Source of the DNA: Malacoraja senta
Lineage: Eukaryota
Assembly: GCA_038087875.1 (NCBI GenBank)
Contig: CM075989.1
Span: 5,084,001-5,147,837, forward strand
Length of the DNA stretch: 63,837 nucleotides
Direction: 5' to 3'
Under the pieces are notes generated by a model. It worked only from the letters and a program-made list of their open reading frames with translations, did no database searches and was not told where the DNA came from. Shown in pieces: positions 2,196 to 59,249 of the stretch (its first letter is position 1; each line of letters starts with the position of its first letter). Both the position numbers and the translations under genes were made by a program.

Positions 2196-2349
2196 ACCAT
2201 CCTCCTGGATATCAAATAGAAGGTTTGTGCGAGCAAGAATCTTAAGATGTCCTTGCATCAATTTCTACCCAGGGATAACAAGAATGCTTTAATTACCTTT
2301 CTTACCACAATGGGCAGGATGGAGGCATGCTTACAAACTGGAATTGAGC

Positions 2350-3047
2350 CATGTGTAACATGTGTGGAAAGGGTGGCGGATTTCCGCTTCTTGGGAATCC
2401 ACATTGAGGAGGACCTGACTTGGAGCGTGAACACCTCTGCGCTGCTGAAAAAGGTCCAGCAGAGACTGTACTTCCTGAGGGTGCTCAGGAAGAACAACAT
2501 CACCCAGAGACTGCTGCTATCCTTTTATCGATGCTCAATTGAGAGCATCTTAACATACTGTGTATGCGTGTGGTACACCAGCTGCACAGCGGCTAAGAGG
2601 AAAGCGCTCCAGAGGGCAATTGACAACGCCCAGAAGATTATCGGCTGCCCTCTCCTCACCTTGAAGGACCTACACAGTTCCCACTGTCTCAAAAAATCCA
2701 AGAAGATCATAAAGGACATTTTCCACTCCCTGTTTGTACTGCTGCTGTCAGGCAGACGGTACAGATCAATGAGGACAAGGACAAACAGACTCAAAAACAG
2801 TTTTTATCCCACAGCAATAAATACACTTAATGTAGCCACCAAATGAGTACAGGTGTGCTACACACCAAAGGGACTGGGAAATCGACAGAAGAATGTGTTT
2901 TTTTTTTCATGTTATTTATTTTAGTTGTTTATCTTAGACTTTTGCTCTAAGAAAATGTGTGCACTGACTGGTTGGCATTTCTAATTTCGTTGTACATGTT
3001 TACATGTTATAATGACAATAAAGTATTCATTCATTCATTCATTCATA
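2350..3047 (+). mobile_element. Rex1/Babar-like LINE 3' fragment with (ATTC)n tail
   Basis: ORF 2247-2846 (FRFLGIHI...KKVQQRLYFLR...RYRSMRTRTNRLKNSFYP); AATAAA followed by ATTC repeats. Confidence 0.88.
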
Positions 3048-3150
3048 ACATTTGGTTAAATTCATTGGAACAATACATAGGTAAACACCATTGTTATAGC
3101 CATTAGTATGGGTATAGCCATTGATCCACAAAACAATGGTGAATTGAACT

Positions 3151-3241
3151 GAAGAAGGGTTTCGGCCCGAAATGTTGCCTATTTCCTTCGCTCCATAGAT
3201 GCTGCTGCACCCGCTGAGTTTCTCCAGCATTTTTGTGTACC
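3151..3241 (+). mobile_element. Solo Penelope pLTR/hammerhead unit with 13-bp TSD
   Basis: GGTGAATTGAACT at 3138-3150 and 3242-3254; the unit starts at the CTGAAGA core. Confidence 0.88.
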
Positions 3242-5239: not shown

Positions 5240-6866
5240 CAGTGCCCCCTCCATAATGTTTGGGACAAAGACCCATCATTTATTTATTTGCCTTTGTACT
5301 CCACAATTTGAGATTTGTAATAGAAAAAATCACATGTGGTAAAAGTGCACATTGTCAGATTTTAATAAAGACAATTTTCATAAATTTTGGTTTCACCCAT
5401 GTAGAAATTGCAGCAGTGTTTATACATAGTCGCCCCCCATTTCAGGGCACCATAATGTTTGGAACACAGCATTGTCATGTAAATGAAAGTAGTTATGTTT
5501 AGTATTTGTTGCATATCCTTTGAATACTTGAAGTCTGCGATTCATGGCCATCACGCTGGGTGTCTTCTCTGATGATGCTCTGCCAGGCCTGTATTGCAGC
5601 CATCTTTAACTTATGCTTATCTTGAGGGCTAGTCCCCTTCAGTTTTCTCTTCAGCATATAAAAGGCATGCTCAATAGAGTTCAGATCGGGTGATTGATTT
5701 GGCCACTCAAGAATTGACCATTTTTTAGATTTGAAAAACTCCTTTGTTGCTTTAGCAGTATGTTTGGGATCATTGTCTTGCTGTAGAATGAATCGCCGGC
5801 CAATGAGTTTTGAGGCATTTGTTTGAACTTGAGCAGATAGAATGTGTCTATGCACTTCAGAATTCATTATGCTACTACCATCAGCATTTGTATCATCAAT
5901 GAAGATAAGTGAGTCAGCACCTTCAGCAGCCAAACATGCCTAGGCCACCACCATGTTTCACAGATGAGATGGTATGCTTTGGATCTTGGGCAGTTCCTTC
6001 TCTCCTCCATACTTTGCTCTTGCCATCACTCTGATATAAGTTAATCTTCATCTCATCTGTCCACAAGACCTTTTTCCAGAACGATGGTTGCTCTTTTAAG
6101 TACTTATTGGCAAACTGTAACCCGGCCATCCTATTTTTTGCAGCTAATCAGTGGTTTGCATCTTGCCTCTGTATTTCTGTTCATGAAGTCTTCTGTGGAC
6201 AGTGGTCATTGACAAATCCACACCTGACTCCTGAAGAGTGTTTCTGATCTGTCGGACAAGTGTTTGGGGATTTCTCTTTATTATGGAGAGAATTCTTCTG
6301 TCATCAGCTGCGGAGGTCTTCCTTGGCCTGCCAGTCCCTTTGCAATTGGTAAGCTCACCAGTGCTCTCTTTCTTCTTAACGATGTTCCAAACAGCTGATT
6401 TTGGTAAACCTAAGTTTTGGCTGATGTCTCTAACAGATTTATTCTTGTTTCTCAGACTCATAATGGTTTCTTTGACTTTCATTGGCACAACATATTGGCC
6501 CGCATGTTGATAAACAGCAATAAAAGTTTCCAAAGGTGATGGAAAGACAGGAGGAAAGACTAGGTGCTGAGAGCTCTCTTATACCTGCATTAAGGAGGCA
6601 ATTAAACACACCTGAGCAATTACAAACGCCTGTGAAGCCATGTGTCCCAAACATTATGGTGCCCTGAAATGGGAGGATTATGTATAAACACAGCTGTAAT
6701 TTCTACATGGTGAAACCAAAATGTATAAAAATACCCTTTAATAAAATCTGACTGTGCACTTTGACCACATGTGTTTTTTTTTTAATATCACAAATCTCAA
6801 ATTGTGGAGTACAGTGGCAAATAAATAAATGATGGGTCTTTGACTCAAACATTATGGAGGGCACTG
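5240..6866 (-). mobile_element. Near full-length Tc1 (DD34E) transposon, copy B, ~225-bp IR/DR TIRs, TA TSD
   Basis: TA|CAGTGCCCCCTCCATAATGTTTGGGAC ... CAAACATTATGGAGGGCACTG|TA; inner direct repeat CAGGGCACCATAATGTTTGG in each TIR. Confidence 0.96.
5499..6506 (-). pseudogene. Frameshifted Tc1 transposase
   Basis: Three ORF pieces: HTH with GRPRK (6144-6533), WTDE (5923-6129), QQDNDPKH...SPDLNSIE with 34 residues between D and E (5499-5933). Confidence 0.93.
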
Positions 6867-8473: not shown

Positions 8474-9324
8474 CTGCAATAAAATGTTAACACGAGGAAC
8501 AAAATATTAATTTCACATTAATATTTACAGACAACATTTGGAAAAGTCTAACATTAGGAAAAACAGATAAAGGCAAAACATTGTTTGAATGCGATAAGTT
8601 CTGATGTACCTGTACCAACAACAAGTACATCTAATTACAGGTCTGTAATATCATTATCTACCTCAAATCAATTGCTGTAGAAATCTTCATCCTTGCCTCT
8701 GATACCTAAAGAAATTACTTTTCCAATGTTATCAAGTCCATTTCCATTCCATTCTACTTTTCACAATCACAAAGTAATAAGACATTAAAAATACTGCCCA
8801 TCAAGTCTTAAGTCTCTCTAGGTTCCATTCAATCATCAACCTACACATATACTGGCTACCAAGCAAGCAATTCTATGTAAAATTCATGCCCATTTTTAGA
8901 TAATCCAGTCTTTTAGATAATTTTTAGATAATCCAGTCGATCCCAACCCATCAGCCCAATAACCTTCAATAAGCTCACGAAACTGTGACCTCTTGATCTT
9001 CTCCAAAATTTCATCCTACCACTCCCGACCTTTACCTGCCAAAGCCCGAAACAACAAACTACCTTCCTAAATAATTCTGTTTTTTGACTTCTCTTCCTAC
9101 TTTTATGATGCGCTTTAGTACCATCTCTCTGGTCAAGTTTTTCGGCTTTTCCCAGGTATATCATTATGTACCTTAATGCTCCTGCTTAATAATGTCATGA
9201 AGTCCCTGGGAATGTTTTGCAATGTTTGAAGGCCAATTGATGAGTAAATCTAGCAGAGTACATCCATAATGCTAATTCAGATATTGTTGTCATTGGGAGC
9301 TTGAATCCAGCATAATGGGAAGGT

Positions 9325-9515
9325 AGAGAAAAATGCTGGAGAAACTCAGCGGGTGAGGCAGCATCTATGGAGCGAAGGAAATAGGCAACGTTTCGGGCCC
9401 GAAACGTTGCCTATTTCCTTCGCTCCATAGATGCTGCATCACTCGCTGCGTTTCTCCAGCATTTTTGTCTACCTTCAATTTTCCAGCATCTGCAGTTCCT
9501 TCTTAAACATAAACT
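9325..9515. mobile_element. Palindromic (foldback) Penelope pLTR unit with 10-bp TSD
   Basis: Inverted arms centred on CAACGTTTCGGGCCCGAAACGTTG; ATGGGAAGGT at 9315-9324 and 9516-9525. Confidence 0.88.
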
Positions 9516-9771
9516 ATGGGAAGGTCATTTACCATCTTTGCTTTCTGTATGATTAGCTGGGCTCTTTCTTGCTACCTATGCTGGTCCTTCAAAGGTTTCC
9601 ATTCTATGTAGGTCTATTCATAAGTAAGCAGCCACATCTGCACTTAAGCCTTCTTTTTATCGTAGACAGCAGTAAAAAGTTATGCTGACCATCACTGATT
9701 TAAAACACGTGAACAAAATCTCATTCTGGGTCAGCTAGGCCAAATTTAGTGGCATACGAACCTCAAATTAT

Positions 9772-10145
9772 GGACGGCATACTGGCTGGCTGGTGGAGCT
9801 GCTGCCTCACAGCACCAGAGGCCTGGGTTCAATCCTGACCTAGGGGGTGCAGTCTGTGTAGAGTTTGCAAGTTTCCCGAAGACTAATGGGTATGGAGTGC
9901 CGGTTTCCGGTTTCCTCCCACATTCTAAAGACGTGCAGGTTTGTGGGTTAATTGGGTTTGGTAACATTGTAAATGGTCCATATTGTGTGGGATAGTGCTG
10001 GTGTACGGGGTGATCACTGGCCGACGTGGACTCGGTGGGCCGAAGGGATTCTTGCCGTGCTGTATCCAGACTGTAAATTGTCCCTTGCGTGTTGGAAATT
10101 AATGCGGTGAGTTAAAGGACCTGTTTCCACACTATCTTTTAATCA
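9772..10145 (+). mobile_element. HE1-like SINE
   Basis: B-box GGGTTCAATCC, conserved core, GGACTCGGTGGGCCGAAGG 3' part. Confidence 0.82.
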
Positions 10146-11374: not shown

Positions 11375-12240
11375 CTAAGCAAAACAAAAAAAACTTCAAG
11401 CATATGGTAAAAATACATAAAAGCTCCATTCATGATGTGCTATGCAAAGCTGGTTCTTGCAGTAAGTTTGGAGACAAAGAGAACTGAACCTTATTACAGA
11501 GGACTGATATTTTATCTACATTTACAATTTGCTTGAGACTTGAATTCCATATGTCAGGAAGCTCTTCAAAACAGTCCTGACATTCCTGGCTAGAAGGCAA
11601 ACAGCAGTTTCCTGCCTATTGTAGAACATATTTTCCCAGCCTTCAACCCCCCCCCCCCCCCCCCCCACCTTTCTTGGGCATATCTAGTTTATTGATCCTG
11701 TAATTATTATTGACCTAAAAATGTCCTCCCAACGTATCCACCATGCTGCAACTTTCACCCTCTTACCAAATTAGAAGTCATTGCATGGTTTTCTACACCA
11801 GAACATTCCTTAGACGATCATAAAGCTCGGTTACTTTGAAAATGCAACAACAAGACTTGGTGAGTTGCCTTGTATGGTCATTTTTAAATTGACTCTGGTG
11901 GTGTGCTACCCAGTATCAATGTAGATAACAGCAGTTGTCACAACAGGCTTAAATAAACTCCTTCGATAAAATGTGGTACAAAATACTGTTGATGCTTGAA
12001 TCTGGAGAAAAAGAAAAACTGCTGGATCAGGGATCCGGCAGCATCTGTGGAGAGATGTTCCGTCAATGCTTGGGGTCAGAACCCTTCCGTCGACTGTCTA
12101 ATTCCTTTCACAGTTGCTACCCCACTTGCTGAGTTCTTCCAGCAGTTTGTTTTTTGTTCCTTCTATAACCGTCTCGCAACAACTCTATTTATAACAAGTA
12201 TATTGATAGACCGAGAATAACAGCCAAGAGTAAGTCATAA

Positions 12241-12821
12241 AGGGGCTGTCCCAGTTATGCGATTTTTTAGGCAACTGTCATAATCGTAGCTGTTCGCCAA
12301 AAAAACGGCGACTACACCCCCCCTATGACAAATTACAACAACATACCACCTAGTCGACGGCAAGCTACCGACAACCGGCGACCCATTAGGACGTCCACCC
12401 ACGGCCACACCTACGACAACCTACAACCACACAGGCGACAACCTACGACAACCGTAGTCAACCTACGTCCATCCGCGACAAGCTACGACAAGCTATGACC
12501 CTGTCAGCGACAACTGAAGACAATTCAGTCGCCGGTTCCTGTCGTCAGTTGACGTAGGTAGTCGCCAATGGAATTCACCGAAGTCAGCACCGGCGACAAC
12601 CTACATCACCTGGCGACAACCTACGACGGCACCTACGTCAGAAGAAGTCAAGCTACGCCCATTGGCGTCAACCCGCTGTCGGCAACATTTTTTAACATGT
12701 TGAAAATCCAGCGGCGACCAGAAAGACACTATGACTCTTTGGGCGACTGAGGAGAGACTACTCACGACCATACAGGCGACAGCCTAGTCTCCTAAAAAAT
12801 TGCCTAAGTGGGACAGCCCTT
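12241..12821. mobile_element. PIF/Harbinger-like MITE with internal CGACAAC(C)TA repeats
   Basis: TAA|AGGGGCTGTCCCA...TGGGACAGCCCTT|TAA; 3-bp TAA TSD; ~35-bp imperfect TIRs. Confidence 0.8.
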
Positions 12822-13756
12822 TAATTTCTACATTTGCTTACATAAAATGTCCTGTTAAAGCATTAATAATTCAAACAAACCAACTTAGTTATACAAAAAT
12901 GGCAGAGGTTCACATGCGGTACAACTACAGGAGGATTGATCTTCACAAGGTTTAAAACCCATTTACTTTCAGACATTTAACATTTTTCAAGCAATTCCTA
13001 ATCCATTCAGGAATTCAGACTTGTTCAGTATATATTAACAAGGGAGAAAGTACAATTTATGTGCATTAGGCCATTTTTTTGTGTTCAAGAGTTCTAAAAA
13101 GTAATATTCCTTCTGCACGATCAGCACATGATCTTCATTTTTACCCTTATTTTGGACAAAATCAATTTCCGTTGTATATAATTAACCTCAAAACAATAAA
13201 GAAAATGAGAACAGCCAGATGTTTTTACGTTGTAAATAATTACTTCTCACTGCTAAATGTAGGAAGACAAGCCAGAAATTGGTCCAACTCTAGAATCATT
13301 TTGTTGATGTGAAGGTTGTGGTAAATTATCTCTGGACTATACTTAGCAGGACATCACAACTTGGCCTTTCATTAGCCTCAGAGGTTTGAGACAAAAGAGA
13401 ATAAACTCATGTTTTACATTTGTGTTGGATGTGATACATTTTACATCATAAACACAAGGGCAGCAGTCTATTGACAAAATGGTCAACCTTTTAACCTGCT
13501 GCTCTTGTCTCCATCTGACTAGGAGCAGACCACCAATGTGACCATTGAGCCATGGGTATGCCCGAACAAAAATAAATAGATAGAGTTTCATAGTCAAATT
13601 AACAGAACTTGAGTGAAATGAACAAAACATTATATAAATATTAATTATTCTAAAACAGCATGCATCTAACCTACATAGCTTTGCTCTGCAATGTATGCCA
13701 ATGAGCAAAGTAGAAATGAATTTGTAACACGCCAAAGCTAAGCAAAAGCTAAGCAA

Positions 13757-16000: not shown

Positions 16001-16557
16001 TTTGGAATGCATGATTCAGAGCTGCTTTGTAACACAAATAAGCCAGAAATATTAAAATTCTTAAAATGTTCAGGAATACCCGGCATACACCTTTTCAAAT
16101 TTTAAGTTGTAGGGGGCAGTCATGTAGATACATTACAAAAGATAGTGCATTGAGATGAACTGATGCAATTTGTGGTTTTATGTAGGGATAGTAGGCAGGT
16201 GAGCAGGGAGTCCCTTCATATATCAACGAAGCATGGAATCTTTGGTTCCATTTGACCAGGCAAAGTATTTAAAATAAGAAATCATTTTTAACAAAGCAAC
16301 ATCCTTTTAGAACAGAACCAAAACAATGACTTGGATTTAATGCTCAAATTCGAGAAAGGGAATAGCATAAATTGTATGTGCTGTGCTGGAACAAATTGGT
16401 AAAAATAATTTTGCCATTTAAGTATTTTGTCTAAAACTATGGCAGGATATTTCTGTGACTGTAGTGGTGCCTGGTTTGACATAACAAAGCTACATCTATA
16501 CTACTTCCAAAGTATAGAAAATAAATGGCATTAAAAATGCCAATATTGATACAGAAT

Positions 16558-16847
16558 GTACACAAAAATGCTGGAGAAACTCAGCGGGTGCAGCAGCATC
16601 TATGGAGCGAAGGAAATAGGTAACGTTTCGGGCCGAAACCCTTCTTCAGACTGATAGGGGGTGGGGAGAAGAAAGGAAAAAAGGAAAAAGGCGGAGGAGG
16701 AGCCCGAGGGCTGGGGGAGGGGAGGAGACAACCAGATGGCTGATGAAGGGGAGGGGACAGCAAGGGCTAGCAGAATTGGGAGAATTCAATGTTCAAGCCC
16801 CCAGGATGTAGACTGCCCAAGCGGAATATGAGGTGCATTTCCTCCAA
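16558..16847 (-). mobile_element. Young Penelope 3' fragment (end of GIY-YIG ORF plus pLTR)
   Basis: Nearly identical to 57236-57525; intact hammerhead-like core at 16622-16649. Confidence 0.9.
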
Positions 16848-17411
16848 TGTGTTGCTCTTTACAATTCTCGGCTTGTTCCACCTTAAGAGAGTATTTTAAA
16901 TTGACTTGAAATCCAATTGGAAAATAAAAACCTTATGTTTTATCCTTTTATAAGGCGCATGGGAAAGACATGATCTGAATCTCTACAACTACATATTTGT
17001 AAGGTTCACAAAAAATGTGAAACATCAAGTGGAACAGAACTCCCCTTGAACAAATCACTTCAATTCTCAAGTGACTTTACAAAGTTTACTATAAACGTTT
17101 GTTTTCTTAGGCCCATACACACCTCACTCATGCCCCACTTCATCTTCATTGGATTGTAAAAATATTGCACCATAGCCCACACTCAGCACATTCAGGGCCA
17201 CAACTTTGACTGCAAAACACCTCACTACTAATGTTTTCTCTTAAATCAACTTGCATAATGTACATCACACTTATCAACACTTAATTTATGGAATCAATCT
17301 CATCTGTATTCTCCCGATTCTATTAACTTTCCAGCGTTTCTCCATAAAAGACATTACGCTAAAATGTACTCGGTTAAAATACCAAACCAAATAAGACACT
17401 GTCTATCAAAC

Positions 17412-18190
17412 ACCCATCCTTTTTCTCCAGAGATGCTTCCTGACCCGCTGAAATACTCCAGCACTTGGTCTCTATCAAACGATTGTTTTGCTGAACACGT
17501 ATGCTCAGTTTGCTTTGGTCTACCCAGTTACCAAACATTTTAACTCCCCTTCCCATGTTGACCTTTCTGTCCGAGGCCTCCTCCACGGCCAGAGTGATGC
17601 CAGACGCAAATTGGAGGAACAGCACCTCATATTTTGCTTGGGCAGCTTACACCACAGCGGTATGAATGTTGAATTTTCTATTTTCAAGTAACCCCTGCAT
17701 TCCTTCCCTCCGCCCTTCCCCACCCTAGTCATCCTACTAGTTCCACTGTTTGCATCCCCATAACCCTTCGTTATCACCTCTTCCCCAGCCAACAATGGGC
17801 CATTATGGCCCCCACCCTTCCGTGGACATCTATTGCTAGCCCTGATTTGTTCTGCCCTTTATCTACCTCCAGATCCTCTCTCTCCCTTACATAGAAACAT
17901 AGAAAATAGGTGCAGGAGTAGGCCATTCAGCCCTTCGAGCCTGCACCGCCATTCAATATGATCATGGCTGATCATCCAACTCAGTATCCTGTACCTGCCT
18001 TCTCTCCATACCCCCTGATCCCTTTAGCCACAAGGGCCACATCTAACTCCCTCTTAAATATAGCCAATGAACTGGCCTCCCCCCCCCCCTACTTTCAGTC
18101 TGAAGGATTCCGACCCATGTCACCCATCCTTTCTCTCAAGAAATGCTGCCTGACCCGATGAGTTATTCCCGCATTTTGTGTCTATCTTCC
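17412..18190 (+). mobile_element. Older Penelope 3' fragment interrupted by a CR1 tail (17889-18079, minus)
   Basis: ORF 17488-17691 (KHFNSPSH...RKLEEQHLIFCLGSL); pLTR at 18096-18190; short pLTR piece flanked by TCTATCAAAC at 17402-17411/17471-17480. Confidence 0.82.
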
Positions 18191-26082: not shown

Positions 26083-26285
26083 TGTTCAAGAAGGAACTGC
26101 AGATGCTGGAAAATCAAAGGTAGACTAAAGTGCTGGAGAAACTCAGCGGGTGCAGCTGCATCTATGGAGCGAAGGAAATAGGCAACGTTTCGGGCCGAAA
26201 CCCTTCTTCCCGAATCGTTGCCTATTTCCTTCGCTCCATAGATGCTGCCGCACCCGCTGAGTTTCTCCAGCACTTTTGTCTACCC
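26083..26285. mobile_element. Palindromic Penelope pLTR unit
   Basis: ~85-bp inverted arms around CGGGCCGAAACCCTTCTTCCCG; yields mirror-image ORFs 25965-26273 and 26130-26357. Confidence 0.87.
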
Positions 26286-28890: not shown

Positions 28891-29291
28891 ATGTTCAAGA
28901 AGGAACTGCAGATGCTGGAAAATCGAAGGTAGACAAAAGTGCTGGAGAAACTCAGCGGGTGCAGCAGCATCTATGGAGCGAAGGAAATAGGCAAACAGTA
29001 ACATACAGAAGCTGGGAGTTCTGTTCATGAGGAAATGGGGAAGATTGTGATGAAAAGGGTTCAGAAAAGATGAGAGGGACGTGGCGAATACCTCAGAGGG
29101 TTGAATTGGATTGGGGCTTGAAGATTAAAGAAAAGGAAGGGGAGCAAAATTATACTGCATGTACAAGAGTGAGGGTGGAGGCATGTTTGTTGGAAGCAAG
29201 AAAAGGAAAGAGTTTTGCCAATTGAGGTCTAGTTTTCTTTTTAGAAAGCAATTTAGGAAAAAACCATGCTAAAGGAACAAGAAATCAGATT

Positions 29292-29497
29292 TAGGTACAC
29301 AAAAATGCTGGAGAAACTCAGCGGGTGAGACAGCATCTATGGAGCGAAGGAATGGGTGACGTTACGGGTCGAAGGGTCTCGACCCGAAACGTCCCCCAAT
29401 CCTTCGCTCCATAGATGCTGCCTCACACGCCGAGTTTCTCCAGCATTTTTGTCTACCTTCGATTGTTCTAGCATCTTCAGTTCCTTCTTAAACAAGA
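29292..29497. mobile_element. Palindromic Penelope pLTR unit
   Basis: Inverted arms around GACGTTACGGGTCGAAGGGTCTCGACCCGAAACGTC; ATCAGATT on both flanks. Confidence 0.85.
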
Positions 29498-30345
29498 CAT
29501 CAGATTCAGTGGCCATGTGTATAGATCAACAAAACCAGCATTTTCACAGGAAATGGAAAGCCCCTGCAATTTTTGACCACAGCATTATTGTATACTGTTA
29601 ACTTTTACACTCACGTCTATACTTTTATTGCAGACTATTCTTCATCTTGGCAGCATCCAGGAGCAACAAAAAATATTACTGATGCCGTAATATACAAAAA
29701 CTGACAAATGAACCATTAAAAAAAAATATAGGTTGCTTAATTTTTAGTATATTCCTCAACATTTTATATATAACAGATTGCTCTGTATATTGCCAGATTG
29801 TAGAAAACAAATAGTAATTAACAATGAATATCTGGAAATAATAAAATGTTGCATAATTCTCTCCATTAAATAAAGACAGACTCTTTCAACAGAAATTTAA
29901 CACATCATTTTTTCAAAATGAACCATTACAGCCATTTCAACCTCCTTTCATCAAACCCCTTTGATGTCAACCTTGAAGAGACGTGGCTATTGCCAAATAG
30001 TTTGTTTATGATGACAGCAACTAAAGATATGCTCATGGGGAGGTGAACAATGTGCAAGCTGGTTCTAGCTCAAGAGACAGCAGGCTTTGGATCAGTTATC
30101 AGAGCAGTCTGAAACCATAGCACCCAACCCATAAAATCAAAATGGCATTATTCCAGAACTTTGGGTGTGATATCAGGACAATCTCCAGTAATTCCCATGA
30201 AGAGGCTGGGGACATTTTACTGTTAAACCTGATTTATAAAATCACAAGTTAACACAATGCAAGAAACGGAAGAGACAGTTGGTTGCTCACATGGGAGATC
30301 CATCGTGCAAATGAACTCAGGATTTACCCCTGCACTGTTTTTGAT

Positions 30346-37075: not shown

Positions 37076-37774
37076 ATCAGAATGAAAGGACATCTAACCA
37101 ACTTACTGAATTTCTAACCTCACACAAAATCACGGCCCGAGTTCCAACTCAATAACCAAAAATTAAAACATCCTCTGAATATCCTCTCCATCAGACTTCC
37201 TCAATTTTATCTTACAAGAGGATTTCCTCTCATTTTTCATGCTTCAAGAACAGAAACCAATCCCACACAATAATTCTTCAAATAACAACCCTTCATCTTT
37301 CAAATCAATGTACAGGGCTACATCACACTACCTCCAAGTGTAACCTTGCCGTGGTGTAGACAGTAAAAATGTGCATTGTACCTCAGAGGTGTTCAAAATA
37401 AATTTGTGTACAATAATTACAAGGTTTCCTTCTTGTAAACAGAACACTTGCTATAAAAATCAACTTACCATTTGTTTCCTAATCACTTGCTGCACATGTG
37501 TGTGTTGTTAGTACACACAACCATAGCGCACTCAATACCAAACCTACATCTATAAAGCATATTTTTGGAATGACATTCCTCAATATTATATTCCATATAC
37601 CAGCTTGTTGCCCAACTAACCCGTCTATACACATCTTCCTTTTCGCTTATTCTTCACCTAACCTTTTTGTCAGACTTGAATTTATTAAACTGTTCTTTTA
37701 TCTAGCTATTAATATGATTGTTAATACTTGATCCTTGCACCCTAAGTAATAACTCAGCAACCCAAACATTAAAT

Positions 37775-37900
37775 AAAAAGGAACTGCAGATGCTGGTTTA
37801 CATCAAAGATAGACACAAAATGCTGGAGTAACTCAGTGGGTCAGAGAGCATCTATGGAGATGCAGCCTGACCTACTGAGTTACTCTAGCTTTTTGTGTCT
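37775..37900. mobile_element. Short foldback pLTR unit lacking the ribozyme centre
   Basis: AGACACAAAATGCTGGAGTAACTCAG ... CTGAGTTACTCTAGCTTTTTGTGTCT; AACCCAAA on both sides. Confidence 0.72.
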
Positions 37901-39043
37901 AACCCAAAAATAACCTGTTTTATATTATGTTAACCAATCTACATGCTTATGTATCACGAAGATCATGAACTCTTATGAAGCGTCTGTTTTCATGGCACCT
38001 TTTAAATACTTTTTCACTTATATTCAGTTTAAATACATTTTCACTGATTTATCTTGCAAGCTGTATCATCAAAAAAAAAACGCGTGCAATTTTCAGAAAA
38101 CCATGTTGAGTTTACCTAACAAAGAATCGTGTTGTGTAGGAAGGAACTGCAGATGCTGGTTTAAACCGTAGACACAAAATGCTGGAATAACTCAGCAGGA
38201 CAGGCAGGATCTCTGGACAGAAGGAATGGGTGACATTTCAGGACCCTTCTTCAGACTCTTCAGAATCTCATTGGTGCTTCTTCATTAATTGATCTGGCAT
38301 TTCTCAGTAAATCAATTCCAGGTTAACAGATTTGGAGCAGCCCTTGTCTAGAAACGTTCTACATTAAATTAACCACTGATAAATAAAGGAATCTTCCATT
38401 GCAAAAGTACATTAAAAACAAGACTATAGCAGGAGGGATCCATTGGTGAGAAATCTTGTTTTTTCATAAAATGTAAATTTGTATTTGCCTCAAAGCACAT
38501 GTAACCAAAAATACTAAAGAAACAAAACTGCAGAGGACTGGTTTACAAAAAAAGACAAAATGCTGGAGTAATTCGGCAGGTCAGGTAGCATCTCTGGAGA
38601 ACATGCATAGGTGACGTTTCAGGTCAGGACCCTTCTTCTAAAATAGATTATCTGATAGGAGTATACAAGACCTGATAGAAATGCAAGATAATGGGAGGAA
38701 GATAGAGGGCAGGTAGAATCTCCACCACCTGCAGAGGTATTAAAAACTAGGTTTTACGATGAGTTTTAAAGAGGATCTGAGCATTGTTTTTGTTTTGCGA
38801 GTGAATATCATGAATGCACTGCCAGAGGAGGTGGTGAAATCAAATGCCATCTGTACATTTAAGCTGCATTTAGACAGACAGAAATAGGCAATGTATAAAA
38901 AGGATTTGGGCCTAATGCAAGCAAATAAGATTAGTCTAGATGCGCAAAAAGGTCGACATGGATGTGGTGGCATCAAGCACCATTTTTTTTTTGCTATATG
39001 GCTCTAGGACTCCAAGTTATTTAGGTGACTTGCAAACCGACTA

Positions 39044-42233: not shown

Positions 42234-43908
42234 CAGTGCCCTCCATAATGTTTGGGACAAAGACCCATCATTTATTTATTTGCTTCTGTACTCCACAATT
42301 TGAGATTTGTAATAGAAAAAAATCTCATGTGGTTAAAGTGCACATTGTCAGATGATAATAAAGGCCATTTTTATACATTTTGGTTTCACCATGTAGAAAT
42401 TACAGCAGTGTTTATACATAGTCCCCCCCCCCCCCCCCCATTTCAGGGCACCATAATGTTTGGGACACAGCAATGACATGCAAATGAAAATAGTCATGTT
42501 TAGTATTTTGCTGCATATCCTTTGCATGCAATGACTGCTTGAAGTCTGCGATTCATGGACATCACCAGTTGCTGGGTGTCTTCTCTGGTGATGCTCTGCC
42601 AACCTGTATTGTAGCCATCTTTAGGTTATGCTTATTTTAGACAATAGACAATAGGTGCAGTAGGCCATTCGGCCCTGAGCCAGCACCGCCATTCAATGTG
42701 ATCATGGCTGATCATCCACAATTAGTACCCCGTTCCTGGCTTCTCCACATATCCCCTGACTCCGCTATCTTTAAGAGCCCTATCAAGCTCTCTCTTGAAA
42801 GTATCCAGAGAACCAGCCTCCACCACCCTCTGAGGCAGAGAATTCTGGGGCTAGTCCCCTCAGTTTTCTCTTCAGCATATAAAAGGCATGCTCAATTGGG
42901 TTCAGATCGACTTGGCCACTCAAGAATTGACCATTTTTTAGCTTTGAAAAACTCCTTTGTTGCTTTAGCAGTATGTTTGGGATCATTGTCGTGCTGTAGA
43001 CTGAACCGCTGGCCAATGAGTTTTGAGGCATTTGTTTGAACTTGAGCAGATAGGATGTGTCTATACACTTCAGAATTCATTATGCTACGACCATCAGCAG
43101 TTGTATCATCAATGAAGATAAGTGGGCCAGTACCTTCAACAGCAATACATGCCCAGGCCATAACACCCCCACCACCGTGTTTCACAGATGAGGTGGTATG
43201 CTTTGGATCTTGGGCAGTTCCTTCTCTCCTCCATACTTTGCTCTTGTCACTCTGATATACGTTAATCTTCGTCTCATCTGTCCACAAGACCTTTTTCCAG
43301 AACTGTGGTTGCTCTTTTAAGTATTCTTGGGTTTTTTCTTTATTACAGAGAGAATTCTCTGTCATCAGCTGTGGAGGTCTTCCTTGGCCTGCCAGTCCCT
43401 TTGTGATTAGTAAGCTCACCAGTGCTCTCGTTCTTCTTAATGATGTTCCAAACAGTTGATTTTGGTAAGCCCAAGGTTTGGCTGATGTCTCCAACAGTTT
43501 TATTCTCGTTTCTCAGCCTCATAATGGCTTCTTTGATTTTCATTGGTACAACTTTGATCCTCATGTTGATAAACAGCAATAAAAGTTTCCAAAGGTGATG
43601 GAAAGACTGGAGGAAAGACTAGGTGCTGAAAGCTCTTTTATACCTGCATTAAGGAGGCATTTAAACATACCTGAGCAATTACAAACACATGTGTCCCAAA
43701 CATTATGGTGCCCTGAAATGGGGGGGCTATGTATAAACACAGCTGTAATTTCTATATGGTGAAAACAAAATGTATAAAAATGGTCTTTATTAAAATCTGA
43801 CTGTGCACTTTAACCACATGTGATTGGTTCTTTTACAAATCCCAAATTGTGGAGTACCGAGGCAAATAAATAAATAATAGGTCTTTGTCCCAAACATTAT
43901 GGAGGGCA
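42234..43908 (-). mobile_element. Tc1 transposon, copy C (internal deletion, interrupted by CR1 tail at ~42639-42845)
   Basis: TA|CAGTGCCCTCCATAATGTTTGGGAC start; ORFs 43343-43579 and 42892-43494 (WTDETK, HDNDPKH); right TIR end eroded. Confidence 0.94.
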
Positions 43909-49290: not shown

Positions 49291-50347
49291 GTAGTTCTAA
49301 TGAAGTTATACTTCAATCTCAAAACTGCTCTCTTTACATGTATAAATAAGAGTCAACATTTTACTGTTCATGTTTTGGATTATAACCAGTATTTGACATT
49401 TAGTCTTGTAGTTTTCCAGTTTTAACCAAAAAAATATAAGAACCAGAAACGGCAATTTGGAAAAATTATTATCATTCTGATAAAGTGGTACAGACAATAA
49501 ATATCATTTGTGCAGAATTTACTATTCCTGTTCATTTTGCTTCAAGAATGTCGCATGTGGCTATTAAAGTTCGCACAAACTGCTGACCAGTCCCATTTGC
49601 TTGTGAAAAGTGCTGGGCAGTGTAGCAATAACAGTGAATAGTCAACAATTGGTCACAGTCACTAACTTGGAATGTGCAGAAATAGGCATTATTAAGATAC
49701 AGCACAAGAATAAGTCCATTGGCCCACAATGTCAGAGCCAAACACAATGCCATTAAAGTAATTAACTCTGCCTGTGATCTATATCTCTGCTTGTAACCCA
49801 TATACCTACATGTCAATGTGCCTACCTAAAAGCCTGTCGTATCTGCCTCCATTACCACCCATGGCAGACTTTCCAGGTACCCACCAGAGTTGTTTTTTTT
49901 AACTCACCTCGTAAGTTTGCCCTTCTCACCTTCAAGCTATGACCTCTAATCATTGACATTTCCATTCTGGGGAAAAAGATCTGAAGAAGGATCTCGACCC
50001 AAAACGTCACCCAATCCTTCTCTCCAGAGACGCTTCCTGTCCCGCTGAGTTATTCCAGTATGTTTGTGTCTATCTTCGGTTTAAACTGCAGATAGTTCCT
50101 TCCCATGCAAAAGGTCTGACTGTATACCCTATCTATATACTTCAATACTCCATTGAGCCTCTAACACTCCAGAGAAACCAATCCAAGTCTGTTTAGCTGA
50201 TACCCCCTCAGCCAGGCAGTATTGTGGTAAACCTCTTCTACATCCGAATTGAGATTAATTATGACAATCACTGGGTACCAGCATTATTAGAACTAAGTTG
50301 GCGGCAATTTAATAAGAATTTCCTTACAGCAACAACTCAAAGATGTG

Positions 50348-50526
50348 TTTAAGAAGGAACTGCAGATGCTGGAAAATCGAAGGTAGACAAAAATGCTGGA
50401 GAAACTCAGCTGATGCAGCATCTATGGAGCAAAGGAAATAGGCAACGTTTCGGGCCGAAACGTTGCATATTTCCTTCACTCCATAGATGCTGCTGCACCC
50501 GCTGAGTTTCTCCAGCATTTTTGTCT
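50348..50526. mobile_element. Palindromic Penelope pLTR unit with 14-bp TSD, ~100 bp from the first coding exon donor
   Basis: AACTCAAAGATGTG at 50334-50347 and 50527-50540; centre CAACGTTTCGGGCCGAAACGTTG. Confidence 0.9.
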
Positions 50527-50633
50527 AACTCAAAGATGTGCTTTGATGAGCCTTTCAAATGCAACAATGAGTCTTCAGCAACACATAATTGCTGTGCACC
50601 TATATATAGCGGAGAGGCAATTAATTTACTTAC

Positions 50634-50970: not shown

Positions 50971-51064
50971 TTCTGAAGAAGGGTCTCGACCCGAAACGTC
51001 ACCTATTTCTTTCGCTCCATAGATGCTGCCTCACCCGCTGCGTTTCTCCAGCATTTTTGTCTAC
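50971..51064 (+). mobile_element. Solo pLTR/hammerhead unit with 10-bp TSD
   Basis: GCACAATTCA at 50961-50970 and 51065-51074. Confidence 0.9.
50973..51000 (+). ncRNA. Putative minimal type I hammerhead ribozyme core
   Basis: CUGAAGA-A-GGGU(CUCG)ACCC-GAAAC-GUC. Conserved core boxes, stem II and GUC cleavage triplet are present; helix I pairing is weak. Confidence 0.6.
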
Positions 51065-52524: not shown

Positions 52525-52921
52525 AAAGCCCCGTCCCACGGTACGAGTTCATTCCAAGAGCTCTCCCGAGTTTAAAAAAAATCAAACTCATGGTAAGCAC
52601 GGAGAATGAACGTAGCGGGTACATCGGAGCTCGGGGACGTCTCTGACCGGCTCGTAAAGCTAACGGCAGGTACTCGGGAAGACCCGCTAATGGCAGGTAA
52701 GCACGAGAAGACTCGTGAAGATTTTTCAACATGGTGAAAAATCAACATTTTCAAAATCAAAATCATATTTCAAAATCAAAATCAACAAAAATCGCCATTT
52801 TTCAACATGTTGAAAAATGTCCACGAGAGCCCCGAGTGGCCATTACCGTAAATCTCCAAGTTCGAATCAGGGCAAACTCGGGAGAGCTCTTGGAATGACC
52901 TTGTATCGTGGGACAGGGCTT
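52525..52921. mobile_element. PIF/Harbinger-like MITE with ~48-bp TIRs
   Basis: AAGCCCCGTCCCACGGTACGAGTTCATTCCAAGAGCTCTCCCGAGTTT and its near-perfect inverse; TAA on both flanks. Confidence 0.82.
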
Positions 52922-55900: not shown

Positions 55901-56069
55901 TTGTGGACGACACCACCGTAGTGGGCCAAATATCAAATAATTACGAGACGGAGTACCGGAAGGAGACTGAGAACCTTGCACCCTGGTGTCAAGTAAACAA
56001 TCTTCTCAATGTCAGCAAGAGAAAGAAGATTGTGTTCGACTTCAGGATGTGAAGCAGTATATATATCCT

Positions 56070-56854
56070 TACATACAACAAGTGATCCTCCGTCAGTTTC
56101 GCCACCTCCAACGTGACCCCACCACTCGCCACATCTTCCCATCTCCCCCCATGTCTGCCTTCCGCAAAGACCGCTCCCTCCGTAACTCCCTTGTCAATTC
56201 TTCCCTTCCTTCCCATACCACCCCCTCCCCTGGTACTTTCCCTTGCAACCGCAAGAGATGCAACACTTGTCCCTTCACCTCCCCCCTCTACTCCATTCAA
56301 GGACCCAAGCAGTCGTTCCAGGTGCGACAGAGGTTCACCTGCATCTACTACAACCTCATCTATTGCATCCGCTGCTCTAGATGCCAGCTGATCTACATCG
56401 GTGAGACCAAGCGGAGGCTTGGCGATCATTTCGCCGAACACCTCCGGTCGGTCCGCAATAACCAACCTGACCTCCCGGTGGCTCAGCACTTCAACTACCC
56501 CTCCCATTCCGTATCTGACCTCTCTGTCCTGGGTCTCCTCCATGGCCACAGCGAGCAACACCGTAAATTGGAGGAAATGCACCTCATATTCCGCTTGGGC
56601 AGTCTACATCCTGGGGGCTTGAACATTGAATTCTCCCAATTCTGCTAGCCCTTGCTGTCCCCTCCCCTTCATCAGCCATCCGGTTGTCTCCTCCCCTCCC
56701 CCAGCCCTCGGGCTCCTCCTCCGCCTTTTTCCTTTTTTCCTTTCTTCTCCCCACCCCCTATCAGTCTGAAGAAGGTTTTCGGCCCTATTTCCTATTTCCT
56801 TCGCTCCATAGATGCTGCTGCACCCGCTGAGTTTCTCCAGCATTTTTGTGTACC
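56070..56854 (+). mobile_element. Young 5'-truncated Penelope-like element (Neptune-type Cys linker + GIY-YIG endonuclease), 10-bp TSD
   Basis: Uninterrupted ORF to 56648: CNRKRCNTC, NLIYCIRCSRCQLIYIGETKRRLGDHFAEH, HFN, KLEE, GLN; TATATATCCT at 56060-56069/56855-56864. Confidence 0.93.
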
Positions 56855-57233
56855 TATATATCCTGGTATATATTGACAGCGCCGAAGTAGAGAAGTTTGA
56901 AAGTTCCAAGTTCCAAGGAGTAAATAACACCAGCAACTTGTCCTGGACAAGCCATATTGAAACAGCCAAGAAAGCACATCAACGCCTCTATTTCCTCAGA
57001 AGGCTTAGGAAATTTGGCAGGTCCCAGACAATTCTCACCAACAGATGCGCCATAGAAAGCATTCTATCGGGATGCATTACTGCATGGTTTTGGAACAGCT
57101 CCCCATCCAAGACAGCAAGAAATTGCAAAGAATTGTGGACGCAGCACAGACCCACGCAAACTAAGCTCCCTTCCATTGACTACATCTACACTTAATGTTG
57201 CCTCGGCAAGGCTCCCAGCATAATCAAGGACAA

Positions 57234-57754
57234 AGGTACACAAAAATGCTGGAGAAACTCAGCGGGTGCAGCAGCATCTATGGAGCGAAGGAAATAGGTA
57301 ACGTTTCGGGCCGAAACCCTTCTTCAGACTGATAGGGGGTGGGGAGAAGAAAGGAAAAAAGGAAAAGGAGGAGGAGGAGCCCGAGGGTTGGGGGAGGGGA
57401 GGAGACAACCAGATGGCTGATGAAGGGGAGGGGACAGCCAGGGCTAGCAGAATTGGGAGAATTCAACGTTCAGGCCACCAGGGTGTAGACTGCCCAAGCG
57501 GAATATGAGGTGCATTTCCTCCAATTTACGGTGTTGCTCGCTGTGGCCATGGAGGAGACCCAGGACAGAGAGGTCAGATACGGAATGGGAGGGGGAGTTG
57601 AAGTGCTGAGCCACCGGGAGTTCAGGTTGGTTATTGCGGACCGACCGGAGGTGTTCGGCGAAACGATCGCCAAGCCTCCGCTTGGTCTCACCGATGTAGA
57701 TCAGCTGGCATCTAGAGCAGCGAATGCAATAGATGAGGTTGGAGGAGATGCAGG
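57234..57754 (-). mobile_element. Young 5'-truncated Penelope-like element (GIY-YIG + pLTR)
   Basis: ORF 57444-57761 nearly identical to the plus copy; TAATCAAGGAC on both flanks. Confidence 0.93.
57300..57327 (-). ncRNA. Putative minimal hammerhead core (UUCG-loop, GUU variant)
   Basis: Reverse complement reads CTGAAGAAGGGTTTCGGCCCGAAACGTT, ~120 nt downstream of the GIY-YIG ORF stop; identical motif at 16622-16649. Confidence 0.55.
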
Positions 57755-58099
57755 TAATCAAGGACCCATACCCATAATCAAGGACAATACCTCTTCGCCT
57801 CTCTCCTATCAGGCAAGAGGAACAGAACCCTAAAAACGGATACTTCCAGATTCAGTTTCTCCCAGTATTATCAGGCAACTGAACCATCTTATCACCAACT
57901 GGAGAGCAGTCCCGAGCTACCATCTATCCCATTGGAAGCAGTCAGACTATCTATAATCAGATTGTCCTGGACTTATCTTGCACTAAACGTTATTTTGTTT
58001 TTCCTGTACCTGTACACTGGACAGCATGATTGTAATCATGTATAGTCTTTCTGCTGACTGGATAGCATGCAATAAAATGTGTTTGGATAAGGATAATAT

Positions 58100-58220
58100 A
58101 GATAGGTGACTTTTCGGGTTGAGACCCTTCTTCAGACGCAAGGAGGGCCCTGACCCGAAACGTCACCTGTGTTCTCCAAAGATGCTGCCTGACTCGCCGA
58201 GTTACTCCATCACTTTGTCT
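58100..58220. mobile_element. Back-to-back pLTR half-units
   Basis: GGTGACTTTTCGGGTTGAGACCCTTCTTCAGAC followed by GAGGGCCCTGACCCGAAACGTCACC. Confidence 0.7.
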
Positions 58221-59249
58221 TATTTTATCTGAAGGATGAAGTTGTGAAAGTTGCACAGCAGAATTAAACAATAACTATTGATACATATAAATTAAGATAC
58301 TTATCAACTTGACTGCAGCAGCATTCTCAGAACAAGTCATAGTCAGATTATTTTTGTAGCTACCACTGAGCAACGATGCAAACTGCCAAGAGATCATCAT
58401 AGAATAGTTCCAAAACCACCACATGCAAGCTTCAGCAATTTAACAATGACAATTTGAGGAGCTTCTCAGAAAAAATTACTTTAATAAGAAAACTGCCACC
58501 AACATTGGCATTGCAACACTTGCCATTCATGCCAAGGGTTCTCATTGTTTTTTACACTCAGTAAAATACTTGAATAAAAAGACTTCACAGATATACAAAT
58601 GGGACATTTCTGAAATTTCAAAACTGTTATTGCAACTTAATTCATCAGTCTTTCCCACATTAGCTAAAGCATAAACTCCAAATTTGCCAAACAATCTTGT
58701 AACTACACCCCTTCATCCCTGGTAACATTCCATTAAGTCTTTACTACCACTTTTCCACTGATTACACTCTCTCCTTGGAACCAAAAGCTACAATATTTGT
58801 GTGACACCAACATGTAATTTTACAAATAAGCATGCCGTTTTTCTTAATTCTACTTTCCCATGAGAACATTTTTTTTCTCAATAACAGCATTACCGATATC
58901 ATCCATTATGCACTCACCATGTAAAGAGTATTTCACTTTTCCCATTCTTAAATGTAAAATGTATTTCACATTTTTAACAGCAAACAACTGCCCAGCCACG
59001 CTGCAAGCTTATGGATATCTTCTTGTTTTCTTTCACAATTGTTGGGCAGTTTTTCCTTTTCCTCTCCAAACTCCACCTCCCCACTCATGCTCCCATTTCT
59101 AAATTTTGGTGATATCAAATCACACGCTTGAATTTACCTTGTACATTAACCCCAATTCTTTTTACATCCAGGTCGTTCGTCTACTCAGTAACCAGCCATC
59201 TCTTTAGGAACACCTTTAGAGGTTGATGAACTTTCCTTCACTCTTAACA

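What the first reader, a model, noticed from the sequence alone, without database searches (positions are those of the whole stretch)
9315..9525. Family of foldback (palindromic) ~180-200 bp pLTR insertions pivoting on ribozyme stem II
Seen: four independent palindromic units (9325-9515, 26083-26285, 29292-29497, 50348-50526), plus variants at 37775-37900 and 58100-58220. In the four main units the symmetry axis falls in or beside the GGG..CCC hairpin, though each junction differs. One arm ends at TTTTGT(C/G)TA(CC) and the other extends ~35 nt further to TTCTT(A/G)AACA. Different 8-14 bp TSDs on three of them show separate insertion events. Inference: they form de novo by hairpin-promoted template switching during Penelope reverse transcription, giving MITE-looking hairpins of retro-origin. 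Inverted pLTRs are known for Penelope, but this stereotyped miniature form may be poorly described.
Basis: partly seen in the sequence, partly recalled or inferred. Interest (0 to 1): 0.72.

Follow-up and report, generated by a model that had tools for sequence, protein, structure and literature searches.

The report
Palindromic Penelope retroelement stubs
These 130-200-base hairpins are pairs of head-to-head stubs from the end of a Penelope-like jumping gene, each apparently built afresh when it landed; the layout is already known for this family, but these tiny, frequent copies offer a way to test how it forms.

Summary
The palindromes are real: five in the window, none in 20 shuffles. Each is two head-to-head stubs of the terminal repeat of a Neptune-type Penelope-like element, whose GIY-YIG end lies in the window attached to the same repeat. 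One arm carries the 35-base tail, the other does not. Target duplications are 10, 14 and about 13-19 bases; each unit has its own junction and subfamily marks, so they arose separately. This is not a MITE. Corrections: 58100 is not a palindrome; 37800 pivots about 30 bases past the ribozyme; the pairing used is not stem II; no unit keeps a complete hammerhead core. Junctions cluster there probably because copies usually stop at the ribozyme's 5' edge. Best mechanism (about 0.5): both target ends prime at the two known start sites, and the tail-primed strand jumps onto the other cDNA. Simple snap-back is the main rival (0.3). Inverted copies, a one-sided tail and palindromic junctions are published for Penelope elements. 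This scan noted the same mini-palindromes before in a shark genome (e1-7858806, e1-7858769). A small variant of a known kind, useful as a natural test set.

The parts
9315..9324 (+). Unit 1, left copy of the 10-base target duplication; its last 6 bases also match the element's short end
9325..9397 (-). Unit 1, short (tail-less) arm, from +16/+18 to about +90
9398..9473 (+). Unit 1, body of the tail-bearing arm; axis between 9397 and 9398, no spacer, 4 shared bases (GGCC)
9474..9509 (+). Unit 1, the tail of about 35 bases
9516..9525 (+). Unit 1, right copy of the target duplication (9510-9515 is a short stretch of unclear origin)
26083..26284 (.). Unit 2: tail arm on - strand 26083-26209 reaching +3, short arm on + strand 26209-26284 starting at +18; 14-base spacer from the tail arm; no target duplication found
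29293..29494 (.). Unit 3, older hammerhead type: short arm on - strand from +14, tail arm on + strand reaching +6; 6-base spacer; duplication 29276-29294 / 29491-29509 with 2 mismatches
50346..50527 (.). Unit 4: tail arm on - strand reaching +11, joined through the family's own 6-7 bp inverted repeat; 14-base duplication 50334-50347 / 50527-50540
37774..37901 (.). Unit 5, oldest subfamily: tail arm on - strand reaching +43, short arm from +49; 4-base spacer; weak 11-base duplication
58102..58225 (.). Head-to-head pair with a 36-base left arm; old, not a long palindrome, not counted
56073..56855 (+). 5'-truncated parent-type copy: linker zinc-finger motif, GIY-YIG coding end, pyrimidine-rich stretch and the same terminal repeat; 10-base duplication
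57234..57755 (-). 5'-truncated parent-type copy with GIY-YIG end and complete minimal hammerhead motif (+1 = 57327); 11-base duplication; used as reference for contigs
16555..16857 (-). Shorter 5'-truncated parent-type copy
3149..3241 (+). Single tail-less stub starting at +1, 13-base duplication
50971..51064 (+). Single tail-less stub starting at about 0, 10-base duplication
28892..28994 (-). Single tail-bearing stub starting at about +27

Best explanation
What it is (about 0.92): miniature insertions of a Neptune-type Penelope-like retroelement, each made of a tail-bearing stub of the terminal repeat and an adjacent inverted tail-less stub, formed separately at each insertion. How it most likely forms (about 0.5): twin priming with a template jump. 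The element's endonuclease nicks both target strands 10-14 bases apart. One target end primes reverse transcription at the inner start site (short end), the other at the outer start site 35 bases further on (tail end). Both copies run toward the usual 5' stop at the front edge of the hammerhead. The tail-primed strand, finishing last, jumps by 1-7 bases of inverted microhomology onto the other cDNA and copies it back to the target; the overhang is trimmed and gaps are filled. Shown here: the anatomy, the duplications, the distinct junctions, the spacer coming from the tail arm, the 5' stop zone. Taken from another element: two start sites and cutting and extension of both strands (PAc in vitro). 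Inferred: the order of priming, the jump, the trimming. The products lack a full ribozyme core and look like inert by-products.
For: Identity: the repeat is continuous with a coding end that scores 23.1 bits on GIY-YIG (cut-off 22.6) in 1 of 2 young copies tested, 18.4 in the other; 25 relatives at E up to 1e-10, the best eight 52-67% identical, seven of them named from sharks and rays; RT and GIY-YIG together in 4 of 5 relatives scanned, RT below Pfam's cut-off. Separate origin: five different junctions; in 4 of 5 units the tail arm matches its own short arm best at 24 (unit 5: 14) diagnostic columns. One tail per unit in 5 of 5, about 0.02-0.03 if the two ends were drawn independently, while tail-less single copies are the majority. 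The short arm ends where tail-less single copies end. The spacer comes from the tail arm in 4 of 4 informative units. The longest 3'-terminal self-pairing among 92 positions of the young subfamily is at +11, the unit 4 junction, and the same continuation is a listed loose end in 95 contigs of run X3, another organism. PAc cuts and extends both strands and starts at two sites that bracket the tail (PMC11167929).
Against: The junction sequence cannot tell a jump onto a second cDNA from a fold-back on the same strand. Only five units; no genome was held. PAc is Poseidon-type and this element Neptune-type, so the two-start-site result is borrowed. Unit 4's arms do not match each other best (17 of 24 columns against 18 of 24 with two other units; 8 of 66 differences, three from one gap), and unit 3's arms differ at a site that marks a subfamily: this fits two RNAs or later mutation better than one RNA. 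Microhomology is only 1-2 bases in units 2, 3 and 5. Unit 2 has no duplication. Units 1 and 4 differ by one base at the centre, and a recurrent junction could also come from a spreading master copy. My search for Penelope with twin priming listed 3 papers, none on this by title or abstract, so I have no direct published support.
Confidence: 0.5

Rival explanations
1. Snap-back (closest to the first reader): one cDNA primed at the tail end stops near the 5' boundary, folds on itself and is extended on its own strand; it stops or is cut at the tail boundary and joins the second target end.
For: Spacers are short (0, 14, 6, 3, 4 bases) and come from the tail arm in 4 of 4 informative units. The +11 hairpin is the predicted fold of the nascent strand, -4 kcal/mol, z -1.7 to -1.9. 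In unit 5 both arms stop within 6 bases of each other away from the usual zone. Small-hairpin inverted duplications with 2-base microhomology are reported at L1 insertions (10.1101/2024.12.14.628481, passages). The tail is said to be needed for endonuclease recognition in Penelope (as cited in PMC11167929), which could supply the cut.
Against: Needs an extra step to stop exactly at the short end. Predicts palindromes with two tail-less arms, since tail-less single copies are the majority; 0 of 5 seen. Arms must be identical at birth, which unit 4 strains.
Confidence: 0.3
2. Self-priming of an antisense transcript, as proposed for rotifer Penelope elements, makes the head-to-head hairpin before integration.
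For: Published proposal for the same head-to-head layout with palindromes at the junction (PMC3846280, passages).
Against: PAc uses a sense template with internal starts in vitro. It does not by itself explain one tail per unit or the shared short end. No expression data: no RNA holder was listed.
Confidence: 0.09
3. A few master palindromes arose once and were spread whole by the Penelope enzyme.
For: Units 1 and 4 have nearly the same centre; the +11 junction recurs in 95 contigs of another organism.
Against: Units 1, 2 and 4 carry different subfamily marks in the arms and tail, units 3 and 5 belong to older types; five junctions in five units. Copying a hairpin RNA from its tail would not stop cleanly at the short end.
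Confidence: 0.05
4. A single stub inserted first and a later break was repaired by host fold-back synthesis.
For: Hosts make short inverted duplications at breaks (search listing only: PMC11724301, PMC7467729).
Against: The duplication flanks the whole unit in 3 of 5 clearly, and the second arm never copies tail or flank.
Confidence: 0.04
5. A DNA-transposon MITE that captured Penelope sequence.
For: Overall hairpin shape and size.
Against: Ends are unequal by 35 bases, duplications vary (10, 14, 13-19), centres differ, and the arms are the end of a retroelement present as single copies and long copies.
Confidence: 0.02

Closest known systems
Endonuclease-bearing Penelope-like insertions with an inverted pLTR and a one-sided tail (Arkhipova et al. 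2013, PMC3846280; Craig et al. 2021, PMC8557442; passages read)
   Same: Inverted 5'-truncated copy directly at the 5' end, head-to-head; 30-40 base tail on one end only; palindrome at the junction; 8-10 base duplications there, 10-14 or more here.
   Different: The passages describe units with an ORF or cargo between the repeats. Here both partners are cut down to about 75-125 bases, so the whole insertion is one hairpin, about one per 13 kb in this window.
Minimal hammerheads of metazoan Penelope-like elements (Cervera and de la Pena 2014, PMC4209133; parts 1-2 of 4 read)
   Same: Core CUGA-N-GA, an unpaired base before stem II, G-C first pair, GAAAC-GUH with no real stem III; mostly single dispersed copies; pairs 100-700 bp apart on opposite strands were noted.
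   Different: In these five units the two half-motifs abut and the CUGA core is missing or incomplete; stem II is 4 bp, not 7-8.
PAc (Poseidon of Anolis), two internal start sites (Frangieh et al. 2024, PMC11167929; parts 1-2 of 4 read)
   Same: Two alternative ends that bracket a tail; uncut ribozyme RNA used as template (4 of 5 tail arms reach upstream of the predicted cut at +28/+29).
   Different: Different clade; the parts I read do not model inverted products; here the 5' stop lies at the ribozyme's front edge.
Non-LTR retrozymes (Li et al., bioRxiv 10.64898/2026.07.22.740005; part 1 of 5 and passages read)
   Same: Small non-coding units derived from Penelope terminal repeats; head-to-tail joints of a 97-99 base unit exist in this family.
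   Different: Retrozymes are head-to-tail with complete ribozymes; these are head-to-head with broken cores. The word 'palindrom' does not occur in that main text.
LINE-1 twin priming (concept recalled; mentioned in 10.1101/2024.12.14.628481, passages)
   Same: Both target ends prime on the element's RNA and are joined through microhomology.
   Different: L1 twin priming inverts a part without duplicating it; here the same stretch would be copied twice.

Membership tests
Endonuclease-bearing Penelope-like element | C-terminal GIY-YIG endonuclease upstream of the terminal repeat | tested here: met
   23.1 bits against cut-off 22.6 for 57444-57851, 18.4 for 56079-56645; continuous with the repeat
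Endonuclease-bearing Penelope-like element | Reverse transcriptase in the same ORF | tested here: inconclusive
   No RT part of this element in the window. RVT_1 matches in 4 of 5 relatives at E 3e-6 to 1e-4, below Pfam's cut-off.
Endonuclease-bearing Penelope-like element | Minimal hammerhead motif in the terminal repeat | tested here: met
   Motif read in single and long copies. Stem II pairs in 77% of 87 cells but shows no covariation above shuffles; no Rfam hammerhead match.
Endonuclease-bearing Penelope-like element | Self-cleavage of that motif | not testable with these tools
   Needs an RNA assay; the five palindromes lack a complete core.
Endonuclease-bearing Penelope-like element | Optional 30-40 base tail at one end | tested here: met
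   About 35 bases, one arm in 5 of 5 units
Endonuclease-bearing Penelope-like element | Inverted 5'-truncated copy adjacent at the 5' end | tested here: met
   Head-to-head in 5 of 5
Endonuclease-bearing Penelope-like element | Short target duplications of variable length | tested here: met
   3 of 5 units clear, 1 weak, 1 none; 5 of 20 single or long copies with 10-13 exact bases
Neptune/Nematis clades | CX2-5CxxC motif in the linker before GIY-YIG (PMC8557442) | tested here: met
   C-x4-C-x2-C in the 55971-56648 frame and in P0001, P0010, P0016, P0019
Neptune/Nematis clades | Placement in an RT tree with reference elements | not tested
   No named reference set was fetched
MITE (DNA transposon) | Matching terminal inverted repeats at both ends | tested here: not met
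   One end is 35 bases longer in 5 of 5
MITE (DNA transposon) | Fixed duplication length and constant interior | tested here: not met
   10, 14, 13-19 bases; five different centres
Non-LTR retrozyme | Head-to-tail repeats each with a complete type I hammerhead | tested here: not met
   Units are head-to-head with broken cores; head-to-tail joints occur elsewhere in the family
microRNA precursor | Match to an Rfam family at its gathering score | tested here: not met
   0 of 15 matches reach it; best 58.8 bits against 95

The most novel reading that the evidence does not exclude
These stubs are the bare footprint of the Penelope integration reaction: both target ends prime at the element's two start sites and the strands are joined by a jump of the enzyme. 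One mechanism would then explain the long-unexplained inverted repeat and the one-sided tail of all such elements, with reverse transcription running off a defined RNA 5' end at the hammerhead's front edge. Cartilaginous fish genomes would hold very many independent read-outs, and the fresh hairpins could feed small-RNA silencing of the parent.
Probability: 0.35. Interest if true: 0.65.

Novelty: new variant of a known kind. Interest (0 to 1): 0.4.

Why it matters
How Penelope-like elements make inverted repeats and a one-sided tail is called an open problem in PMC8557442 (passages). Long copies are rare and hard to assemble; these are short, frequent (5 in 64 kb) and each records one reaction, so a genome-wide count can separate the models. 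They would be misfiled as MITEs or microRNA hairpins by automatic tools. In transgenic flies, inverted regions of Penelope give siRNAs (PMC3681739, passages), so young hairpins inside transcribed DNA could silence the parent; nothing here shows that they are transcribed.

Tried and rejected
No genome was held, so counts rest on one window. Exact-pattern scans of metagenome, viral and prokaryote contigs gave 0 matches each. No RNA holder was listed; this says nothing on expression, and editing or small RNAs could not be tested. Rfam: 15 matches, none at gathering score, none a hammerhead. Stem II covariation: not above shuffles, 478 of 500 as high. Folding single motifs did not give the hammerhead fold (3 of 3, z -0.25 to 0.57). 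Idea that the ORF starts at the ATG at +51: open through the tail in 3 of 7 tail-bearing arms, broken in the rest including both older copies; not supported. My automatic spacer finder was misled by mismatches in 4 of 5 units; spacers were read by hand. The count '11 of 18' printed left out 3 long copies and 1 partial hit; the full count is 11 of 22, and for older copies an alignment start may reflect upstream divergence, not a true end. Joints in table 5c with offsets of 31-35 could be fold-backs or short tandem duplications; not used. Only 1 opposite-strand joint was among the 15 joints shown, 136 not shown. Contig depth drops upstream of -5 but is no copy number. Run X1 may be the window's own source. 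Paper searches that found nothing: Penelope with hairpin, palindrom, shark, skate, non-autonomous (5 of 6 terms); Neptune, Penelope-like, palindrom, MITE; Penelope, elasmobranch, hammerhead ribozyme. The library lacks most subscription papers and Repbase or Dfam entries, and I read no supplements; figures or supplements of PMC4209133, PMC3846280 and PMC8557442 may already show such minimal units.

Full report
Numbering. +1 is the C of the hammerhead core CTGA in the copy at 57234-57755 (minus strand; +1 = 57327). Stem II is +9..+12 with +17..+20, the predicted cut is after +28, the short end is at about +93, the tail end at about +129. The reading of the motif as a minimal hammerhead follows PMC4209133; Rfam does not detect it.

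1. The observation. Five long hairpins exist in the window and none in 20 shuffled windows. All five belong to one repeat family, which with its longer copies covers about 10% of the window in 30 hand-listed pieces. In each of the five, one arm stops at the short end and the other carries about 35 more bases. Duplications are 10 exact bases at unit 1, 14 exact at unit 4, 19 with 2 mismatches at unit 3, a weak 11 at unit 5 and none at unit 2; 3 of 300 random pairs reach a score of 10. The pair at 58102 is head-to-head but has a 36-base left arm and is not counted.

2. What the repeat is. Three young longer copies continue upstream through a pyrimidine-rich stretch into coding sequence. That frame holds a GIY-YIG domain preceded by a C-x4-C-x2-C motif, which marks Neptune and Nematis elements and is absent from Penelope/Poseidon (PMC8557442). 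The closest of 25 longer relatives are shark and ray proteins at 60-67% identity, and 4 of 5 relatives scanned carry RT plus GIY-YIG. Six such coding fragments lie in the window. So the arms are the 3' terminal repeat of a Neptune-type element, and the host is probably a cartilaginous fish (inference). No RT tree was built.

3. Separate origins. Read tail arm first, the junctions are: unit 1, tail arm to +16, no spacer, 4 shared bases; unit 2, to +3, short arm from +18, 14-base spacer, 1 shared; unit 3, to +6, from +14, 6-base spacer, 2 shared; unit 4, to +11, through a 6-7 bp inverted repeat; unit 5, to +43, from +49, 4-base spacer, 2 shared (read by hand). Units belong to different subfamilies, and in 4 of 5 the tail arm matches its own partner best at diagnostic columns; unit 4 does not. 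Arms differ at 3-8 of 65-66 columns in units 1-4 and 7 of 45 in unit 5, which looks like ordinary decay; I see no sign that pairing is maintained.

4. Why the junctions sit at the ribozyme. Single copies stop in the same place: 11 of 22 begin between -5 and +8, two of them with exact duplications of 13 and 10 bases. In contigs of four runs laid on 57226-57760, listed loose ends fall at -1 with long, unlike flanks in two runs (149 contigs in X1, 290 in X2, agreement about 0.3), and head-to-tail joints run from -1, -2 or -4 back to the short end (tables cut, 2087 loose ends not shown). The loose ends at -4 in all four runs resemble an older subfamily's upstream sequence and are not counted as true ends. 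So first strands usually end at the front edge of the motif. This could be a transcript start (TCAGT resembles an initiator), a splice acceptor (pyrimidine tract then CAG; in D. virilis the intron ends at helix I, PMC4209133), or a stall at the C-rich tract; I cannot tell which. Four of five tail arms extend upstream of the predicted cut, so the template was uncut, as for PAc. None of the five keeps the full core. The one strong pivot is not stem II: in the young subfamily the loop II sequence is complementary to the GAAAC core, giving the longest terminal self-pairing among 92 positions. It gives the unit 4 junction exactly, unit 1 within one base, and recurs in 95 contigs of run X3. The older type lacks this repeat.

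5. Mechanism. Four facts need explaining: one tail per unit (5 of 5), a second arm that ends where tail-less single copies end, a spacer from the tail arm (4 of 4 informative), and a duplication around the whole. PAc protein cuts and extends both target strands and starts at two sites that bracket the tail (PMC11167929). If each target end primes at one site, the first, second and fourth facts follow. If the tail-primed strand finishes last and jumps onto the other cDNA, the third follows too. Snap-back gives the same junctions and explains the short spacers well, but needs a further step for the exact second end and predicts two-short-arm units, of which I saw 0 of 5. I put these at about 0.5 and 0.3. 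Against any one-RNA model: unit 4's arms and one site in unit 3. All steps after the anatomy are inferred.

6. What is known. An inverted truncated copy at the 5' end, a tail often on one end only, and palindromic junctions are described for Penelope-like elements, with self-priming proposed (PMC3846280; PMC8557442; inverted terminal repeats and a 34-bp repeat in PMC2377424). Pairs of minimal hammerheads on opposite strands 100-700 bp apart were noted in 2014. Three searches found no paper on this minimal form in sharks or rays, within the library's limits. Earlier notes of this scan describe the same units in a shark genome and the single stubs in a ray; they agree with the reading I had recorded before and are not independent evidence.

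7. Verdict. Its value is as a large natural test set for an unsolved step. Interest 0.4.

Noticed in passing
window 57329-57332 and 57233-57234 (table 5): Head-to-tail joints of a 97-99 base unit (from -1, -2 or -4 back to the short end) appear in contigs of all four runs: retrozyme-like tandem forms of the same stub.
   Followed up: partly
window 17412-17470; joint 57298 to 57239, table 5c: One single copy with a 10-base duplication starts right at the predicted ribozyme cut (+29), and a joint in runs X1 and X3 falls there too; a weak hint that cut RNA is sometimes copied.
   Followed up: partly
window 57328-57400 (minus strand): A long pyrimidine tract ending in CAG lies directly before the hammerhead core; it could be a splice acceptor or, as TCAGT, an initiator.
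   Followed up: no
window 56073-57755: Two young Penelope-like copies face tail-to-tail with 378 bases of another retroelement fragment between; each has its own duplication (10 and 11 bases), one in a TA-rich target.
   Followed up: partly
window 3147-3241, 16555, 56855, 57234, 29293: The GTG variant of the short end occurs only in tail-less arms (four single or long copies and unit 3's short arm), never in a tail-bearing one.
   Followed up: partly
window 2220-2846: 208-residue open frame with a Pfam ALKBH8_N match (E 7e-19); similar pieces at 1620-1991 and 56812-57195 look like fragments of another retroelement family.
   Followed up: no
window 5499-6578 and 42892-43512: Frames that resemble Tc1-type transposase pieces (label recalled, not tested).
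   Followed up: no
window 52525-52922 and 12237-12825: Unrelated elements with 40-49 base inverted ends 300-500 bases apart, more like true MITEs.
   Followed up: no
window 9780-9900: A decayed SINE-like repeat next to unit 1 (label recalled, not tested).
   Followed up: no
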